A DNA stretch of 8,827 bases, from the IMG/VR virus record IMGVR_UViG_2667527792_000005; one strand, given 5' to 3'. Made by a program: the position numbers and the translations under genes. Below the pieces are notes generated by a model, which was given only the letters and a program-made list of their open reading frames with translations, was not told the DNA's origin and did no database searches. Below, in pieces: positions 1-7,412 of this stretch. The stretch is from a virus (lineage: Duplodnaviria; Heunggongvirae; Uroviricota; Caudoviricetes). Position 1 is the stretch's first letter; the number at the start of each line of letters is the position of its first letter.

Positions 1-101
1 ATACTTTGCTGCATCCGCGTTGATCCCTGATGCAGGGTGTTCCACCACTCCACGGAGTAATGAATAATCGGCAGATTCACCACGCCAATCAGCACCAGGG
101 T
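1..101 (-). pseudogene. ccmC: Internal shard of a ccmC-like gene (cytochrome c heme exporter CcmC); runs off the window start and is cut at ~99-104
   Basis: Minus-strand translation [32 protein letters not shown] matches the C-terminal WWNTLHQ region of E. coli CcmC as I recall it. Immediately 5' of this (plus >101) the translation becomes [26 protein letters not shown], which does not match CcmC, with in-frame stops beyond. Confidence 0.55.
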
Positions 102-212
102 CGCGCCAATGACCTCGCCGGTCTTAACAATTTGCACATTCCCGTCGCTCATCAAGTTTTTCGCATCAGATCCCATGATTTATTCCTTTGCTGCATCTGT
201 GTGCCTTTATTG

Positions 213-2069
213 CTACCTAAGTGTAAAGGCTACGGAGGATTTATCCACGACAGATTTGAGATGGTGGCAAACAACTCTGTTTACTATGTCTTCTACGATT
301 ACGGGATCTGCGACTTCGCCAGTTTCATCACTGCAATCGCGATGCGGATCGCTGCCAGCATTCTCATTGTGCGGATGTTCAGCGCCTTCCATTTCCTCCG
401 GATCATTTTCCTTAGCTTCAACCTGACTCTCTTCATCGAATGTTTCCTGGTATGTTGCGTCGCCCATCACCGCACCACAGTCAGGGCAGTTATCCCCGCC
501 AGTCTGGCCGCAGGCATTGCAGGCTATTTCCGGTTCCTGTTGCACTACTGGCTCAGGTTGATTCATATCTGGGCTGGTTTTTTCCGTTTCTGGCTGGTTC
601 TGGTACACACAATCGCGAGTCTGGATCCCCTTTACCCATTTCGGATCGTTCGGGTCGCTAATTCCGTCAACAAATTCACCACGTGATGCAGCAAGCAATT
701 TATCGGCATCGACAGGATTTTTTGATGGAATGTTTTTCCGGGCTTCATGGAGTTCTGCCCGCAGTTCCTGATATTTCGCATCAACAGAATTTACCTGTGA
801 CTGAGCATCCAGCGGCTGCGTGTCCTGATGATGTTCAGTTGCGTCCGGTTCCATTGTTTCAGCCTCTCCCTGTTCAACTGCCGTTGTTCCAGATGGTTGC
901 GGTTTTTCTTCATCATCCTGTTTTCCTTCTTCTGTTACTCGCTGCGGCATCGGGGCAGAGGAGCGACCGCAGGCAATATCCACGATTTCCGGATCAGGGT
1001 TGGCATGATCGGTTTCAGTCAGTACTTTGTTCAGATATTCAGTGACGTGCGCGGGGATGACCTCGATCCCAATTGGTGCTTCTTTTACGGACGCAACCAC
1101 GATGGCGCGGGAATAATCCAGCCCGCCAGGCATGGTGATGAATTTGTCGCGGAAAACAGAAAAGGGCGGTTTATTTTCAGCGATAATTTCCTCAATGCGT
1201 TTAGCGTGTGCCGGATGAAGGTTATAGATGTCCAGATCCATTGAACGGGCCAGTACGCCAGTGGCTACGTCGCGCGCCAGTGACGTCAGATCGTGTACGA
1301 AACCTTCGCCGCGATCGGTGAGGTTTCCGCCGCCAGCATTAGCACCGGAAGCCGTGCAAGTGATGTGTGAAACACGATTACCCTTCATCCACTCTTTTGT
1401 CAGCAGTCCTCGATCGGTGTAGTCAGCGTTCAGGTATGCTTCGAAAAAAGCAGTTATCAGTCCCAGGTTTGAATTACCAGGATTAGGGAAAACTTTGTCA
1501 GTGTCACGAACCAGTTTGTGGAGTTCGCGAATTTCCAGCGGGTCGAGCAGGCTGGTTTTGTGGGAAACAGCCAGGGCAGTAACAGCCGGTAGTTCTTCAG
1601 CCCGAGCAATGTGTAATGCCTGGAGTCCGTCGCGTGAAACGTGCGTTACCGGTTTTTCGCTGCCGTGTTGAGCAAGCCAACGAATGGGCAGTTCCTGGCC
1701 AGAAATTGGGAGTAGCATATTCTCCTCAATCTCAGTCATGTCTTCGCCGTTGACGTTGGTATTGCCTTGATAGTGAGCGTTGTCTGGTGCTGCTCCCGGT
1801 TTTAGTTCCCATGTCATGGAGTCTTTGCTGAGTTGATAGCGTTCACTCCAGGTAAAATCGATCTCACCTTCAGCGGGCAGGTCATTAACGACAGGAAAAT
1901 TCGTGGCAACAGCTTTAAAATAGCTGCTCAGTTTTTTACCTGACTTAACGATCAGGTAGTCCAGAGTGGCACAGGTCGATTCAAAATCGTTGCTTGCCCA
2001 CAGGACGACGTCAGGTTCACCGGATGATTTTTTCGCTTTCCGTAACAGGAAGAGTGGTTTTGTGCTCAT
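213..2069 (-). CDS. recE: recE 5' portion: Rac-prophage exodeoxyribonuclease VIII N-terminal region. ORF is 618 codons versus 866 aa for the K-12 protein as I recall it; the C-terminal nuclease domain is absent. Similarity to RecE appears to end near plus 285; the last ~23 codons ([23 protein letters not shown]) look foreign
   Basis: Six-frame track ORF; N-terminus [30 protein letters not shown]... recognised as RecE; sits directly downstream of racC-ydaE-kilR in the known Rac order; acidic low-complexity middle and a [16 protein letters not shown]ys4 motif. Downstream in the same frame are stops at 213-215, 207-209 and 180-182. Confidence 0.8.
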
Positions 2070-2142
2070 TGTTTTTTAACCTCAACTCAGATTAAAATTC
2101 GTTTTGTTCAGTGAATGATCTTGCCGGATACACACTGTTCAT

Positions 2143-2163
2143 AGCCTGCGCCATACGCAGGCT
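2143..2163 (-). promoter_or_regulatory. Perfect 8-bp-stem hairpin (agcctgcg-ccata-cgcaggct) in the racC-recE intergenic region; not followed by a U-tract on the minus transcript
   Basis: Inverted repeat read directly from the sequence at 2143-2150 and 2156-2163, lying between the racC stop (2171) and the recE start (2069). Confidence 0.4.
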
Positions 2164-2170
2164 ATTTCTT

Positions 2171-2446
2171 TCAGATTTCACCTTTTAATTTCATTGCAAT
2201 TAGAGTTGCCAGAAATTCGGCTTTTTTTTCTGCGGGCAGATTCTTTCCGATATGCACCAGGCACATTTTTTTGACACCTTCATCAAGTGTTTTTACGTTG
2301 CCTGATGGACCATCGATATCAACCACAGTGAATGGGGTTTCTTTATTTTCTGTTTTAATTACGTAGCCAATGCGCTTTCCTTCCAGATTCACCTCGTGAA
2401 CAATGTCATCGGTAGTTACAACAGTGGCTTCATAATTGGTAATCAT
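2171..2446 (-). CDS. racC: RacC, Rac prophage small protein (91 aa)
   Basis: Translation MITNYEATVVTTDDIVHEVNLEGKRIGYVIKTENKETPF...MKLKGEI, 91 aa, matches RacC as recalled. Start chosen at the ATG preceded by AAGGAG with 6-nt spacing (plus 2444-2446), not the longer track ORF starting at 2494. Confidence 0.8.
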   Translation of the reverse strand: MITNYEATVVTTDDIVHEVNLEGKRIGYVIKTENKETPFTVVDIDGPSGNVKTLDEGVKKMCLVHIGKNLPAEKKAEFLATLIAMKLKGEI

Positions 2447-2520
2447 GTTTTTCTCCTTAATTAAGGTTGAGCGAATACCTGCCATTTCTGGCATAAATTC
2501 AGTTTCGAATAGTCAATTAA

Positions 2521-2691
2521 TTAAAGTTCATGTGCCATCTGGTCTTTTTCGGCACAAGCTTCACTGCAATATTTTCTCGGTTCGTCTTTTGATAAAATCC
2601 CGTGCATGAAGTGAAGCATTCTTTCAATAGCTTTGCTTTCTTCAACGTCTTTTTTGCAAAGGTGGTAAGCACATTTTATTTTCTTAGTCAT
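2521..2691 (-). CDS. ydaE: YdaE, Rac prophage small Cys-rich (zinc-binding-like) protein, 56 aa
   Basis: Minus-strand translation [56 protein letters not shown] (56 aa). Its ATG (2689-2691) overlaps the kilR stop (2691-2693) by 1 nt. Missed by the >=60-aa ORF track. Confidence 0.75.
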   Translation of the reverse strand: MTKKIKCAYHLCKKDVEESKAIERMLHFMHGILSKDEPRKYCSEACAEKDQMAHEL

Positions 2692-2912
2692 CACCATGAC
2701 TCCGCCTTTACAGGTAAACCATCACGACCGAGGAAGACTTTAATCATGCGGTCAGTAATGAATGTTTTTGTGGTCAGGTTACGAATATATAGTTTTCGCT
2801 TTTTAATATTGTTTGCCGAGGCAATATATGTCCGGCCTTCATGAAGAACATAATCGCCAGGAGTCACACACTGACGTGGTATTTCATCAGTTCCGAAGTG
2901 ATGTGCAATCAT
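2691..2912 (-). CDS. kilR: KilR, Rac prophage killing protein (cell-division/FtsZ inhibitor), 73 aa
   Basis: Translation [73 protein letters not shown]. Start at the second ATG (2910-2912), which has GGAG 8 nt upstream; the track ORF starts 4 codons earlier. Confidence 0.85.
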
Positions 2913-3353
2913 AATTATCTCCATTTTTACAAATGAACTTTGTTGATGCGGTGTCTGGTGCCTCCAGGTGACTGCAACCAGTTAACAATTACAGTCGGCT
3001 TTCCCACCCAAACCAATAAGGACTAACATGACTTTTAACTGTGCCACGTGCGCTTAGCCGCATTCACCGCATCACAAAATTCACTTTAAAAAGGGCGGAC
3101 ATCAGCCGAACTTCAAGAAAAAAACTGATGCCGCCAGGACTACACACAGCAATGTCGTTATTTACAACCGGAGGCGCACTCCCTCCATTTAAATTTAACA
3201 GACAAGACCGACTCTTTATGGATATCGGAAATGCGCCTTCGTGTTGTGCCCGGTTTTATTTCACCACCTCCGGGCTTCGGTGGTCTCGGCTATACCCCTA
3301 CAGCGAGAGCTTGTGTTAACATTTCAATACCCTTACAGTTGAGAGTTATTGAT

Positions 3354-3842
3354 ATGTTGGATGTATTTACTCCATTGTTGAAACTTTTTGCTAACGAGCC
3401 ACTCGAAAGACTTATGTATACGATTATCATTTTTGGTCTCACTCTCTGGCTGATACCGAAAGAGTTTACTGTCGCATTCAATGCTTATACTGAAATACCT
3501 TGGCTCTTTCAGATTATCGTTTTTGCCTTTTCTTTCGTGGTCGCCATTTCCTTCTCAAGATTGCGAGCACATATTCAAAAGCATTATTCATTACTACCAG
3601 AGCAACGAGTATTGCTTCGTTTATCTGAGAAAGAAATCGCTGTATTTAAAGATTTCCTTAAAACAGGAAATCTTATTATCACTTCTCCTTGCCGTAACCC
3701 GGTTATGAAAAAATTAGAACGGAAGGGCATCATTCAACATCAGAGTGATAGCGCAAACTGTTCTTATTATCTCGTCACCGAAAAATACTCCCATTTTATG
3801 AAGTTATTCTGGAACAGCAGGAGTAGACGTTTTAATCGTTAG
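3354..3842 (+). CDS. sieB: SieB, superinfection exclusion protein B (Rac prophage), 162 aa, two predicted transmembrane helices
   Basis: Translation MLDVFTPLLKLFANEPLERLMYTIIIFGLTLWLIPKEF...FWNSRSRRFNR. Start at ATG 3354 with GAGAG upstream; the track's 203-aa version (3231) is an unsupported N-terminal extension. Confidence 0.85.
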   Translation: MLDVFTPLLKLFANEPLERLMYTIIIFGLTLWLIPKEFTVAFNAYTEIPWLFQIIVFAFSFVVAISFSRLRAHIQKHYSLLPEQRVLLRLSEKEIAVFKDFLKTGNLIITSPCRNPVMKKLERKGIIQHQSDSANCSYYLVTEKYSHFMKLFWNSRSRRFNR

Positions 3843-3994
3843 CTTACTGTGTGCTTCTCCAACCATCGGCGCGCACCAGTTTCGGTTTTAAATGTTTTGC
3901 TTTTGGTATACGTCATGGCAGTGAACGTTCCATCCTGGTTGGGGAACACGCCGCACACCAGGGATTCGTTGTTGCCGAGGTCGATTTTTTGCAT
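3839..3994 (-). CDS. ydaF: YdaF, Rac prophage small protein, 51 aa
   Basis: Minus-strand translation MQKIDLGNNESLVCGVFPNQDGTFTAMTYTKSKTFKTETGARRWLEKHTVS. Convergent 4-bp overlap with the sieB stop. Below the track size cutoff. Confidence 0.7.
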   Translation of the reverse strand: MQKIDLGNNESLVCGVFPNQDGTFTAMTYTKSKTFKTETGARRWLEKHTVS

Positions 3995-4004
3995 TTTGCG
4001 AATC

Positions 4005-4139
4005 TCACATCTTGTTGCTACGTATAGCGACTTCTGCCTGCCAGAGATCCCAGTCGTTGCTGCGTAAAGCCTGCACAGCCTGGTTGTAAGTGATACCGCA
4101 ACAATCCATCAAATACTGAACTACTTCGTAATGCACCAT
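4005..4139 (-). CDS. ydaG: YdaG, Rac prophage small protein, 44 aa
   Basis: Minus-strand translation MVHYEVVQYLMDCCGITYNQAVQALRSNDWDLWQAEVAIRSNKM, preceded by AGGGGAGAG 5 nt upstream. It is the 3' end of the track ORF 4005..4361, whose upstream part is read-through across N's. Confidence 0.7.
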   Translation of the reverse strand: MVHYEVVQYLMDCCGITYNQAVQALRSNDWDLWQAEVAIRSNKM

Positions 4140-4152
4140 CTTATCTCTCCCC

Positions 4153-4201
4153 TTAACGCCGGGTGGCGGAACTAACTGCTGCACTGCAAAATTTGAATCC
4201 C
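4153..4201 (-). pseudogene. racR: Possible 3' tip of racR (Rac repressor), cut by NN at 4202-4203
   Basis: Minus-strand frame ends ...GFKFCSAAVSSATRR-stop immediately upstream of the ydaG RBS. Identity inferred from Rac gene order only; the sequence is not recognised from memory. Confidence 0.25.
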
Positions 4202-4203
4202 NN
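4202..4203. other. Two ambiguous bases (NN) at the breakpoint between the Rac block and an unrelated shard
   Basis: Literal n characters; the sequence context changes completely across them. Confidence 0.9.
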
Positions 4204-4285
4204 CGCGTCGGAGAGGTAATTTTTGCCGGTTTCGCCGTCGCTGAGCGCCAGTTGCCACTCATCGCCCGCCGGGTAAAGACCAAGG
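4204..4285 (-). other. Unassigned 82-bp coding-like shard (minus frame LGLYPAGDEWQLALSDGETGKNYLSDA)
   Basis: Open minus-strand frame with protein-like composition, but no start or stop inside the shard; bounded by NN on one side and the garR shard on the other. Confidence 0.3.
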
Positions 4286-4458
4286 TGAGCGGCGGTGAAC
4301 CGAAAGCCATCGACGGTACGCTGTCAGTGATGGTGGGCGGCGACAAGGCTATTTTCGACAAATACTATGATTTGATGAAAGCGATGGCGGGTTCCGTGGT
4401 GCATACCGGGGAAATCGGTGCAGGTAACGTCACCAAACTGGCAAATCAGGTCATTGTT
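4286..4458 (+). pseudogene. garR: Internal shard of garR (tartronate semialdehyde reductase, 3-hydroxyisobutyrate dehydrogenase family), ~57 codons
   Basis: Translation VSGGEPKAIDGTLSVMVGGDKAIFDKYYDLMKAMAGSVVHTGEIGAGNVTKLANQVIV matches GarR, not GlxR. The conserved DAP preceding VSGG is absent in all frames upstream, so the 5' breakpoint is at ~4285/4286; the 3' end is at N 4459. Confidence 0.7.
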
Positions 4459-4459
4459 N

Positions 4460-4594
4460 AAGACGTTGTTCCAGTGTTTTAATACTATGGCTAATGGCGG
4501 ACGAGGATAAGCCTAATTCATCGCCCGCTGCACGAAAGCTTTGATTACGGGCCACGGCAAAGAAAGTGGCAAAGTCAGACATATTCATCCGCAT
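4460..4594 (-). pseudogene. ycaN: 5' end (45 codons, HTH domain) of the LysR-family regulator ycaN, truncated at N 4459
   Basis: Minus-strand translation MRMNMSDFATFFAVARNQSFRAAGDELGLSSSAISHSIKTLEQRL is a typical LysR N-terminal helix-turn-helix; divergent from ycaK as in K-12. Confidence 0.75.
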
Positions 4595-4617
4595 TAGTGA
4601 AAATCCTTCATTAACTC

Positions 4618-4643
4618 ATCCTGAATCATCACGTTTACAGGAT
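4618..4643. promoter_or_regulatory. Inverted repeat ATCCTG-N14-CAGGAT in the ycaN/ycaK divergent intergenic region; candidate LysR-type binding site
   Basis: Arms read directly at 4618-4623 and 4638-4643; located in the 99-bp divergent promoter region between a LysR regulator and its neighbour. Confidence 0.35.
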
Positions 4644-4693
4644 TATGCCGCCTGCGTAAAGTGCGCTCCAGAACTTAACGTGGAGGTAAAATT

Positions 4694-5284
4694 ATGCAGT
4701 CTGAACGTATTTATTTGGTATGGGCCCATCCTCGTCATGATTCATTGACCGCACATATTGCTGATGCGATCCATCAGCGGGCAATGGAGCGGAAAATACA
4801 GGTGACGGAACTCGATTTATATCGGCGTAATTTCAACCCGGTGATGACGTCGGAAGATGAACCAGACTGGAAGAATATGGATAAACGTTATTCTCCAGAG
4901 GTTCATCAGCTTTATTCAGAGCTGCTTGAGCATGACACGTTAGTGGTGGTTTTTCCTCTCTGGTGGTACAGCTTCCCGGCAATGCTAAAAGGATATATTG
5001 ACAGAGTATGGAATAATGGGCTGGCTTATGGAGATGGGCACAAATTACCATTCAATAAAGTTCGTTGGGTGGCGCTGGTTGGAGGAGACAAAGAATCATT
5101 TGTCCAGATAGGCTGGGAAAAAAATATAAGCGATTATTTAAAAAATATGTGCAGTTATCTTGGTATTGAAGATGCCGATGTCACTTTCTTGTGTAATACA
5201 GTGGTATTCGATGGGGAAGAACTTCACGCGAGCTATTATCAGTCGTTATTATCTCAGGTACGGGATATGGTAGATGCACTATAA
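4694..5284 (+). CDS. ycaK: YcaK, flavodoxin-like NAD(P)H:quinone oxidoreductase family protein, 196 aa
   Basis: Track ORF; GGAGG 8 nt upstream of the ATG; translation MQSERIYLVWAHPRHDSLTAHIADAIHQRAMERK...; neighbour of pflA as in K-12. Confidence 0.9.
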   Translation: MQSERIYLVWAHPRHDSLTAHIADAIHQRAMERKIQVTELDLYRRNFNPVMTSEDEPDWKNMDKRYSPEVHQLYSELLEHDTLVVVFPLWWYSFPAMLKGYIDRVWNNGLAYGDGHKLPFNKVRWVALVGGDKESFVQIGWEKNISDYLKNMCSYLGIEDADVTFLCNTVVFDGEELHASYYQSLLSQVRDMVDAL

Positions 5285-5323
5285 GATGTGTTAAAAACGC
5301 TGTAGCAGAATGAAGTGCGGAAT

Positions 5324-5357
5324 AAAAAAGCGGCAACTCAATAAAGTTGCCGCTTTA
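5324..5357. terminator. Bidirectional rho-independent terminator between convergent ycaK and pflA
   Basis: aaaaaa-GCGGCAACT-caataa-AGTTGCCGC-ttt: 9-bp perfect stem with an A-tract on one side and a T-tract on the other. Confidence 0.75.
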
Positions 5358-5365
5358 CGGGGAAA

Positions 5366-6106
5366 TTAGAACATTACCTTATGACCGTACTGCTCAAGAA
5401 TGCCTTTCACGCGTTCCATGGTCTCTTTCTTAGGTGGTTTAACACCGTCGAGTTTGTACTCTTCACCCATTGCCACCCATTTGTGTTTGCCCAGCTCGTG
5501 GTAGGGGAGGAGTTCGATTTTCTCAACGTTGCCCATATCACGGGTAAATTCACCGAGGCGATGCGCTGAATCGTCATCGTCAGACCAGCCTGGGACAACA
5601 ACGTAGCGGATCCACACCTTCACATTTTTGTTCGCCAGATATTTGGCGAACTCCAGCGTGCGGTGGTTGGAAACTCCAACCAGATTTTGGTGGATCTCGT
5701 CGTTCATCTGTTTGAGATCGAGCATTACCAGGTCGGTTACTTCCAGCAGTTCATCAATCACCGGATCGTAACGACGAACAAAACCGTTGGTGTCCAGACA
5801 GGTATGAATGCCTTCTTTTTTGCAGGCGCGGAACCAGTCACGAACAAACTCAGCTTGTAGGATTGCCTCACCGCCGGATGCGGTAACGCCGCCGCCGGAA
5901 GCGTTCATAAAGTGGCGATAGGTCACCACCTCTTTCATTAAATCTTCAACGGTAACTTCTTTACCGCCATGCGTATCCCAGGTGTCGCGGTTATGACAAT
6001 ACAGGCAGCGCATCAGGCAGCCCTGGAAAAAGGTGATAAAGCGAATACCTGGGCCGTCTACGGTTCCACAGGATTCAAAGGAGTGAATGCGACCAATAAC
6101 TGACAT
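5366..6106 (-). CDS. pflA: PflA, pyruvate formate-lyase activating enzyme (radical SAM), 246 aa
   Basis: Translation [41 protein letters not shown]... with the CxxxCxxC radical-SAM motif. Start at ATG 6104-6106 (GGAGAAA upstream), 9 codons inside the track's longer ORF. Confidence 0.95.
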
Positions 6107-6229
6107 TGCGGTGTTTCTCCAGATGTGGCCCATCTGAGGCCGTGTTGGTGCGCAGCTCGAAGGCTACGTCGAGTCTGTTTTGGCAGTCACCTTAAAGTAT
6201 AGATAGCTGACAAAAAAGGCTCTCGTGCT

Positions 6230-6258
6230 AAAAAAGGCCCCACTTTCGTGGAGCCTTT
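6230..6258 (-). terminator. Candidate rho-independent terminator downstream of pflB (minus transcript GGCUCCAC-gaaa-GUGGGGCC then U-run)
   Basis: 8-bp stem with one G-U pair followed by six T on the transcribed strand, ~40 nt after the pflB stop. Confidence 0.6.
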
Positions 6259-6297
6259 ATTGTACGCTTTTTACTGTACGATTTCAGTCAAATCTAA

Positions 6298-7357
6298 TTA
6301 CATAGATTGAGTGAAGGTACGAGTAATAACGTCCTGCTGCTGTTCTTTAGTCAGCGAGTTGAAACGTACTGCGTAGCCAGATACACGGATGGTCAGCTGC
6401 GGATATTTTTCCGGGTTTTCCATCGCGTCGAGCAGCATTTCACGGTTCATCACGTTAACGTTCAGGTGCTGACCACCTTCGATGGATGCTTCGTGGTGGA
6501 AGTAACCATCCATCAGACCAGCCAGGTTGGTCTTACGAACTTCGTCGTCTTTACCCAGTGCGTTCGGAACGATAGAGAAGGTGTAGGAGATACCATCTTT
6601 AGCGTAAGCAAACGGCAGTTTAGCAACGGAAGTCAGAGACGCTACAGCACCTTTCTGGTCACGACCGTGCATCGGGTTAGCACCCGGTCCGAACGGCGCG
6701 CCAGCACGACGACCGTCTGGGGTGTTACCAGTTTTCTTACCATACACAACGTTAGAAGTGATGGTCAGAACAGACTGAGTCGGGATAGCGTCACGGTAGG
6801 TGTGCAGTTTCTGAATTTTCTTCATGAAACGTTCTACCAGGTCAACAGCCAGGTCATCTACACGCGGATCATTGTTACCAAACTGCGGGTATTCGCCTTC
6901 GATTTCGAAGTCGATAGCCAGACCGTCTTCGTCACGAATCGGTTTAACTTTCGCATATTTGATTGCAGACAGGGAGTCAGCAGCAACGGACAGACCAGCG
7001 ATACCACACGCCATGGTGCGGATAACGTCACGGTCGTGCAGCGCCATCAGAGAGGCTTCGTAGCTGTACTTGTCGTGCATGTAGTGGATGATGTTCAGTG
7101 CAGTGATGTACTGTTTAGCCAGCCAGTCCATGAAGTGATCCATGCGCTCCATCACTTCATCATAGTTCAGGACATCGCCTTTGATCGGTTCAGACTTCGG
7201 ACCAACCTGCATTTTCAGTTTTTCGTCAACGCCGCCGTTGATTGCGTACAGCATGGTTTTCGCCAGGTTTGCACGCGCACCGAAGAACTGCATTTGTTTA
7301 CCAACGATCATCGGGCTTACGCAGCAAGCAATAGCGTAGTCATCGTTGTTGAAGTCC
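6298..7357 (-). CDS. pflB: pflB 3' portion: C-terminal 353 codons of pyruvate formate-lyase, truncated at N 7358
   Basis: Translation ...[31 protein letters not shown]...[29 protein letters not shown] includes the Cys-Cys active site and the glycyl-radical RVSGYAV motif (Gly codon at 6376-6378). The open frame continues right up to the N, after which unrelated sequence follows. Confidence 0.93.
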
Positions 7358-7358
7358 N
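7358..7358. other. Ambiguous base (N) at the breakpoint between pflB and unrelated sequence
   Basis: Literal n; pflB frame is intact to 7357, then the context changes. Confidence 0.9.
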
Positions 7359-7412
7359 GAGGATTTTGTTATTGAAATTCTTTGCGCCACCAATGCTCTC
7401 TTTGTATCCCGC

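What the first reader, a model, noticed from the sequence alone, without database searches (positions are those of the whole stretch)
4202..4459. Two small coding shards (unassigned 82 bp, garR 173 bp) sandwiched between N's, separating the Rac block from the ycaN-pflB block
4286-4458 encodes GarR residues beginning exactly at VSGG, but the conserved preceding DAP is missing, so there is a further breakpoint about 80 bp after the NN. 4204-4285 is an open minus-strand frame of unknown origin. Fragments this short, from unrelated genes, delimited by ambiguous bases, look like concatenated short contigs or reads rather than biology.
Basis: partly seen in the sequence, partly recalled or inferred. 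Interest (0 to 1): 0.4.

Follow-up and report, generated by a model that had tools for sequence, protein, structure and literature searches.

The report
Chimeric draft contig, not biology
The two tiny gene fragments are pieces of the E. coli genes malF and garR, wrongly stitched between unrelated sequences in a badly assembled draft-genome contig, so they are an assembly artefact and not a feature of the genome.

Summary
Window 4204-4283 is an 82-bp piece of malF, coding on the minus strand for MalF residues 123-148. Window 4284-4457 is a 174-bp piece of garR (GarR residues 122-179). The two abut bluntly at 4283|4284. They lie between a Rac prophage block (284-4205) and a ycaN-ycaK-pflA-pflB block (4457-7360).

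In none of 5426 complete E. coli genomes are the two shards adjacent. The problem is wider than the finding. The whole window is a mosaic of ten unrelated E. coli pieces: ccmC, ydhQ, Rac, malF, garR, ycaN-pflB, yqeI, otsA, an eltA plasmid piece and ileS. There are nine junctions, and only four carry N.

The window is the complete 8827-bp WGS contig CDRT01000476.1 of assembly GCA_001373215.1, reverse-complemented. Its chimeric RecE-ydhQ ORF is on record on that one contig only.

The Ns are not spacers. Each sits inside a 1-5 base stretch where the two neighbouring references are superposed, at a position where they disagree (for example ATATC / AAAGC gives ANANC). That points to a computational join, not a ligated molecule. 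The junctions share no restriction site, no repeat and no mobile-element end.

Verdict: a mis-joined draft contig. Interest is low.

The parts
1..99 (-). ccmC fragment (block 1), at the contig end
   Evidence: 100% match to ccmC in 5421 genomes. Annotation, exact limits.
100..283 (-). ydhQ 5' end plus upstream intergenic DNA (block 2). Blunt junctions at 99|100 and 283|284, no N.
   Evidence: 100% match. Annotation, limits.
284..4205 (.). Rac prophage block: recE (cut at codon 595), racC, ydaE, kilR, sieB, ydaF, ydaG-like. Colinear with strain 504838 and 100% identical to it.
   Evidence: The Rac reference keeps matching through the NN and the following CG.
4202..4203 (.). NN inside a 4-base superposition of the Rac end (GCCG) and the malF end (AACG), written as NNCG
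4204..4283 (-). malF shard, encoding MalF residues 123-148 (periplasmic loop region).
4284..4457 (+). garR shard, encoding GarR residues 122-179. Blunt junction with malF at 4283|4284.
4459..4459 (.). Single N at a position where garR (G) and ycaN (T) disagree. It is the third base of the ycaN block.
4457..7360 (.). ycaN (first 46 codons only), ycaK, pflA and pflB (C-terminal ~354 codons only). Colinear and 100% identical.
7358..7358 (.). Single N in the superposition of pflB GGA and yqeI TGA, written as NGA
7359..7412 (-). yqeI shard (54-55 bp)
7413..7610 (-). otsA shard (198-201 bp). It shares 2-3 bases with the yqeI end. No N.
7611..8724 (+). Piece of a heat-labile enterotoxin plasmid: upstream region plus eltA cut at about codon 232 of 258. 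99.7% identical to pB7A_66.
8720..8724 (.). ANANC, a superposition of eltA ATATC and ileS AAAGC. The two Ns (8721, 8723) are exactly the two positions where they disagree.
8725..8827 (-). ileS fragment, at the contig end

Best explanation
The window is one complete contig (CDRT01000476.1, 8827 bp) of a fragmented draft assembly of an LT-positive (ETEC-like) E. coli. Software, not the cell, strung ten unrelated pieces of the genome and of a toxin plasmid together. The malF (82 bp) and garR (174 bp) shards are two of seven short pieces. These short pieces fill the space between, and cap the ends of, three genuine contigs: Rac 3.9 kb, ycaN-pflB 2.9 kb and eltA 1.1 kb. Shown: where each block comes from, the exact breakpoints, the uniqueness of the record, and the superposed nature of the Ns. 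Inferred: a scaffolding, end-extension or gap-closing step joined the pieces. Where the ends of two neighbours could be laid over each other by a few bases it collapsed them and wrote N at the disagreements. Elsewhere it simply butted them together. The program cannot be identified from the sequence.
For: 1. Every block matches E. coli at 99.5-100%, but at separate loci. In strain E2865: ccmC 3.00 Mb, ydhQ 2.27 Mb, otsA 2.60 Mb, yqeI 3.86 Mb, garR 4.18 Mb, ileS 0.03 Mb. In strain 504838: Rac 0.64 Mb, malF 2.57 Mb. eltA is on a plasmid.
2. No complete genome (0 of 5426) holds any neighbouring pair together.
3. The malF|garR junction sequence is absent from GTDB species genomes, IMG/VR and JGI metagenomes. 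No phage or plasmid record covers 3900-4800.
4. The chimeric RecE+ydhQ ORF is on record on exactly one contig, which equals the window reverse-complemented.
5. The breakpoints cut core and essential genes mid-gene, some mid-codon: recE, malF, garR, ycaN, pflB, otsA, eltA, ileS.
6. All 6 Ns lie where the two neighbouring references disagree, inside 1-5 base stretches where the other positions agree: NNCG, NGA, ANANC. In 3 of the 4 N junctions the left reference goes on matching for 2 further bases beyond the first N, skipping any second N. The chance of that is about 0.001. A single ligated molecule would have one unambiguous sequence there.
7. The layout is regular: small, small, LARGE, repeated. 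Ns occur only at large|small borders: 4 of 6, against 0 of 3 small|small borders.
8. Authors of a widely used pipeline state that greedy scaffolders and gap fillers make false joins (PMC5320598).
Against: The software is unidentified. I could not see the reads, the assembly's other contigs or the submitter's methods, so lack of read support across the junctions is inferred and not shown. At 4458 the window has T where garR has G. The simple superposition model would predict N there, unless the overlap was one base or the strain carries a synonymous GTG-to-GTT change.
Confidence: 0.93

Rival explanations
1. Physical chimeras: sheared fragments were ligated to one another during library construction (or by amplification template switching), and the assembler faithfully assembled the chimeric molecules.
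For: Five of the nine junctions are clean and blunt, with 0-3 bases of shared sequence, as blunt ligation would give. The two-shard fillers are 253-283 bp, about the size of one sequenced fragment.
Against: A chimeric molecule has a single sequence at its junction. Here four junctions carry Ns exactly where the two parents disagree, within superposed ends. Nine independent chimeras, each covered well enough to be assembled into one 8.8-kb path, are very unlikely. No common restriction or adaptor sequence occurs at the junctions.
Confidence: 0.05
2. Deliberate or semi-deliberate concatenation: leftover short contigs or reads were pasted into one record, for example to pass a minimum-length filter or as a 'bin' of unplaced pieces. 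No scaffolding evidence was involved.
For: The order and orientation of the blocks bear no relation to genome position. Pieces of 55-201 bp are shorter than archives or pipelines normally allow as separate contigs (PMC5320598, describes removal of short contigs).
Against: Plain pasting would not superpose ends or write N at the mismatches. It would not give the regular small-small-large pattern. Usual practice inserts a fixed linker or N run. This is a variant of the best explanation (in-silico artefact) and not a true alternative to it.
Confidence: 0.1
3. Genuine genomic mosaic: the isolate really carries this scrambled DNA, produced by illegitimate or RecET-type microhomology recombination, or by mobile elements.
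For: The Rac block encodes recE, and RecET can recombine short homologies (general knowledge). Some junctions share 2-3 bases.
Against: No IS end, att site, target duplication or repeat occurs at any junction. The pieces are 99.5-100% identical to core genes, which would then be broken or duplicated. None of 5426 complete genomes shows any of the joins. Ns at the superposed positions point to software.
Confidence: 0.01

Closest known systems
Mis-joined (chimeric) contigs from short-read assembly, scaffolding and gap closure (for example Velvet/SSPACE/GapFiller-type pipelines)
   Same: Unrelated loci are joined in one record. Very short pieces sit between larger genuine contigs. Residual 1-2 base Ns sit at the joins. 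The record is unique to one draft assembly. Pipeline authors acknowledge false joins by greedy scaffolders and gap fillers (PMC5320598).
   Different: The density is extreme: 9 false joins in 8.8 kb. The shared ends are only 0-5 bases, below GapFiller's published 10-nt closure rule (PMC3446322). The tool and submitter are unknown, and attribution to any particular pipeline is untested.
Pseudomolecules or scaffolds with N spacers between contigs
   Same: Contigs are placed one after another in a single record, with N near the joins.
   Different: Spacers are normally runs of N lying between the contigs. Here the Ns are 1-2 bases, lie inside overlapped ends at mismatch positions, and are missing from 5 of 9 joins.
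Proximity-ligation or cloning chimeras (3C/Hi-C, chimeric inserts)
   Same: Distant loci are juxtaposed with sharp junctions.
   Different: Those junctions carry the restriction or ligation site. No common 6-mer occurs at these junctions, and the Ns indicate superposed consensus.

Membership tests
Assembly artefact (chimeric draft contig) | Neighbouring blocks map to non-adjacent loci in finished genomes of the species | tested here: met
   0 of 5426 complete E. coli genomes hold any neighbouring pair together. The loci are megabases apart.
Assembly artefact (chimeric draft contig) | Each block on its own is near-identical and colinear with the species' genome | tested here: met
   99.5-100% identity. 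Zero internal mismatches in 8 of 10 blocks; otsA has 1 and eltA has 3.
Assembly artefact (chimeric draft contig) | The junctions exist in one draft record only | tested here: met
   The chimeric ORF is found on 1 contig, CDRT01000476.1 of GCA_001373215.1. The junction pattern is absent from three large collections.
Assembly artefact (chimeric draft contig) | No reads or read pairs span the junctions | not testable with these tools
Scaffold gap spacer (N run between contigs) | Ns lie between the aligned ends of two contigs and stand for unsequenced bases | tested here: not met
   The flanking references continue to match across and beyond the Ns. The Ns coincide with positions where the two references disagree (P about 0.001).
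Restriction/ligation chimera (Hi-C, cloning) | A common restriction or ligation motif at the junctions | tested here: not met
   No 6-mer is shared by two or more junction neighbourhoods. The best 4-mer occurs in 4 of 9.
Genuine rearrangement or mobile-element mosaic | Element ends, target-site duplications or repeats at the junctions, and recurrence in related genomes | tested here: not met
   The junction contexts show only 0-5 shared bases and no repeats. No recurrence in 5426 genomes.
GapFiller-type gap closure | Closure only where the left and right extensions overlap by at least 10 nt (PMC3446322) | tested here: not met
   The small|small junctions share 0, 0 and 2-3 bases.

The most novel reading that the evidence does not exclude
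The mosaic is physically present in the isolate: short pieces of core genes and of the LT plasmid were stitched by microhomology-poor end joining next to a Rac prophage segment that carries recE. That would be an unusual illegitimate-recombination product in E. coli.
Probability: 0.01. Interest if true: 0.6.

Novelty: not a real feature. Interest (0 to 1): 0.04.

Why it matters
The finding has no biological significance. Its practical value is as a warning. This public record (GCA_001373215.1, contig CDRT01000476.1) carries nine false joins in 8.8 kb. Gene callers have already turned them into chimeric 'proteins' that sit in large protein collections: RecE+ydhQ of 618 aa, a malF/garR/ycaN ORF of 76 aa and an eltA+ileS ORF of 265 aa. 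Scans for novel gene fusions, prophage boundaries or toxin-gene variants would be misled by it. The rule that single Ns mark mismatches of a forced tiny overlap is a handy signature for flagging similar records.

Tried and rejected
1. I looked for the source or a second copy of the malF|garR junction. It is absent from genome contigs, viral contigs and metagenome contigs. Phage and plasmid records match only the separate pieces.
2. I searched papers for the accession (CDRT01, GCA_001373215) and found nothing. The submitter and method remain unknown.
3. I tested restriction or ligation sites at the junctions. There is no shared motif, so Hi-C or cloning chimeras are rejected.
4. I tested a repeat-mediated (shared k-mer) mis-join. 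Neighbouring references share only 0-5 bases at the joins, so this is rejected.
5. I tested Ns as gap spacers. This is rejected because the references read through them.
6. I tested GapFiller's published closure rule (at least 10 nt of overlap). It does not fit. I recall that single-N insertion by some scaffolders also exists, but it would not give ANANC.
7. The exact look-up of the 76-aa malF/garR/ycaN ORF, which contains an X, found nothing in the collection under that spelling, although a 76-residue gene is called at that place on the record.
8. One malformed paper search returned an error.

Full report
**Observation.** The window holds only six ambiguous bases: NN at 4202-4203 and single Ns at 4459, 7358, 8721 and 8723. 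The stretch between the first two N sites is made of two pieces.
- Megablast of 4204-4458 against 5426 complete E. coli genomes places 4284-4457 in garR at 100% identity. No genome covers 80% or more of the query in one place.
- The left part, 4204-4286, matches malF in 5417 genomes.
- Base-by-base comparison with reference loci puts the exact malF block at 4204-4283. It can be extended to 4202 if the Ns are treated as wildcards. Exact garR begins at 4284, so the junction is blunt.
- The plus frame from 4285 reads VSGGEPKAIDG...NQVIV, which is GarR residues 122-179.
- The minus frame of the left shard reads GLYPAGDEWQLALSDGETGKNYLSDA, which is MalF 123-148.

The 'unassigned' shard is malF.

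**Surroundings.** The mosaic is not limited to the finding. Successive searches resolve the whole window into ten blocks:

| Window coordinates | Origin |
|---|---|
| 1-99 | ccmC |
| 100-283 | ydhQ 5' end and upstream DNA |
| 284-4205 | Rac prophage, recE to ydaG, 100% colinear with strain 504838 |
| 4204-4283 | malF |
| 4284-4457 | garR |
| 4457-7360 | ycaN-ycaK-pflA-pflB, 100% |
| 7359-7412 | yqeI |
| 7413-7610 | otsA |
| 7611-8724 | eltA with its upstream region, 99.7% to ETEC plasmid pB7A_66 |
| 8725-8827 | ileS |

- In single genomes these loci are megabases apart. In strain E2865, ccmC is at 3.00 Mb, ydhQ at 2.27, otsA at 2.60, yqeI at 3.86, garR at 4.18 and ileS at 0.03. In strain 504838, Rac is at 0.64 Mb and malF at 2.57.
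- eltA is plasmid-borne.
- No complete genome joins any neighbouring pair.
- The breakpoints cut recE, malF, garR, ycaN, pflB, otsA, eltA and ileS within the genes.

**Source.** The recE reading frame runs across the 283|284 junction into ydhQ DNA and gives a 618-residue chimeric ORF (window 213-2069, minus strand).
- An exact look-up finds that protein on one contig only: NCBI GCA_001373215.1, WGS contig CDRT01000476.1, length 8827.
- That locus is the reverse complement of the window, base for base. The window is therefore one entire 'contig' of a draft assembly of an LT-positive E. coli.
- The malF|garR junction sequence is absent from the GTDB species genomes, IMG/VR and the JGI metagenomes. 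No phage or plasmid record spans 3900-4800.
- No paper in the library cites the accession.

**Nature of the Ns.** I laid the two neighbouring references over each junction.
- At Rac|malF the references read GCCG and AACG, and the record reads NNCG.
- At pflB|yqeI they read GGA and TGA, and the record reads NGA.
- At eltA|ileS they read ATATC and AAAGC, and the record reads ANANC.
- At garR|ycaN the N (4459) is again a G/T disagreement.

All six Ns fall on disagreeing positions inside 1-5 base stretches in which the remaining positions agree.
- In three of the four N junctions the left reference continues to match for two more bases beyond the first N, skipping any second N. If the Ns were spacers between independent pieces, the chance of this would be about 0.001.
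- The five junctions without N share 0, 0, 0, 2-3 and 0 bases, which is what chance gives.
- The Ns are therefore consensus ambiguities of tiny forced overlaps. They are neither gaps nor delimiters.
- This argues for a computational join. A ligated molecule has one definite sequence at its junction.
- One position does not fit perfectly. At 4458 the window has T while garR has G. This needs either a one-base overlap or a synonymous GTG-to-GTT difference in this strain.

**Architecture.** The block sizes follow a pattern: 99 and 184, then 3922, then 82 and 174, then 2904, then 55 and 198, then 1114, then 108.
- The layout is two short shards between each pair of larger blocks.
- The two-shard fillers total 283, 256 and 253 bp.
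- Ns occur only at large|small borders (4 of 6) and never at small|small borders (0 of 3).
- This looks like three genuine contigs, each 'extended' at both ends by an unrelated short piece, with the extensions then abutted. That is the behaviour expected of a faulty scaffolding, extension or gap-closing step.
- Authors of a widely used bacterial pipeline state that SSPACE and GapFiller are greedy and can make false joins. They also state that scaffold gaps of N are then targeted for closure and that short contigs are dropped (PMC5320598).
- I cannot attribute this record to that pipeline or any other. GapFiller's published rule, closure only with an overlap of at least 10 nt (PMC3446322), does not reproduce junctions that share 0-5 bases.

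**Alternatives.**
- Restriction or ligation chimeras are rejected. No 6-mer is shared by the junction neighbourhoods.
- Repeat-mediated mis-joins are rejected, because the neighbours share no k-mer at the joins.
- Library ligation chimeras explain the blunt junctions. They explain neither the superposed Ns nor nine such events in one 8.8-kb path.
- A genuine rearrangement has no support. There are no element ends, no duplications and no recurrence in 5426 genomes, and core genes, including the essential gene ileS, are represented here only by internal fragments.

**Verdict.** The finding is real as a sequence observation and is explained as an assembly artefact.
- It is a chimeric draft contig in which malF and garR shards sit between a Rac block and a ycaN-pflB block.
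The mosaic has ten blocks, and the Ns mark mismatches of forced overlaps and are not boundaries.
- Confidence that the joins are computational is about 0.93. Confidence in the particular step (scaffold extension or gap closure with tiny-overlap merging) is about 0.5.
- Biological interest is minimal. The practical point is that this record has seeded chimeric ORFs into protein collections.

Noticed in passing
window 1-8827: The whole record alternates two short shards with one larger block. The two-shard fillers are 283, 256 and 253 bp. Ns occur only at large|small borders. The near-equal filler sizes may reflect an estimated gap or fragment size in the assembly software.
   Followed up: partly
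window 213-2069 (-), 4252-4482 (+), 7974-8771 (+): The junctions create chimeric ORFs: RecE(1-595)+ydhQ tail (618 aa), malF/garR/ycaN (76 aa, contains X) and eltA+ileS (265 aa). Genes of 618, 76 and 207 residues are called at these three places on the public record (the last is a shorter call within the 265-aa ORF). The 618-aa one is on record in the protein collection as a member of the RecE cluster.
   Followed up: yes
window 7611-8724: The eltA (heat-labile enterotoxin A subunit) block marks the source as an LT-positive, ETEC-like strain. It differs from plasmid pB7A_66 at three positions (8023, 8600, 8668) and is cut at about codon 232, so eltB is absent from this contig.
   Followed up: partly
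L008 2811-3064 (plasmid pB7A_66, NZ_CP035815.1): In the reference plasmid, RefSeq annotates a 'frameshifted hypothetical protein' just downstream of eltA and annotates no eltB in the stretch shown, where I would have expected eltB (from memory). This may be an annotation or assembly issue in that record.
   Followed up: no
window 3231-3842 (+): The sieB reading frame is open for 203 codons here and is called as 203 aa on the record. RefSeq annotates a 162-aa SieB in strain 504838. This is probably just a difference in start-codon choice.
   Followed up: no
window 6307-7452 (+): A 381-codon ORF runs antisense to pflB and crosses the N at 7358 into the yqeI and otsA shards. It is almost certainly a spurious shadow ORF.
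   Followed up: no
window 4458: The window has T where the garR reference has G (a synonymous GTG to GTT if it belongs to garR). This is the only position that does not fit the simple 'N at every mismatch of the overlap' rule.
   Followed up: partly
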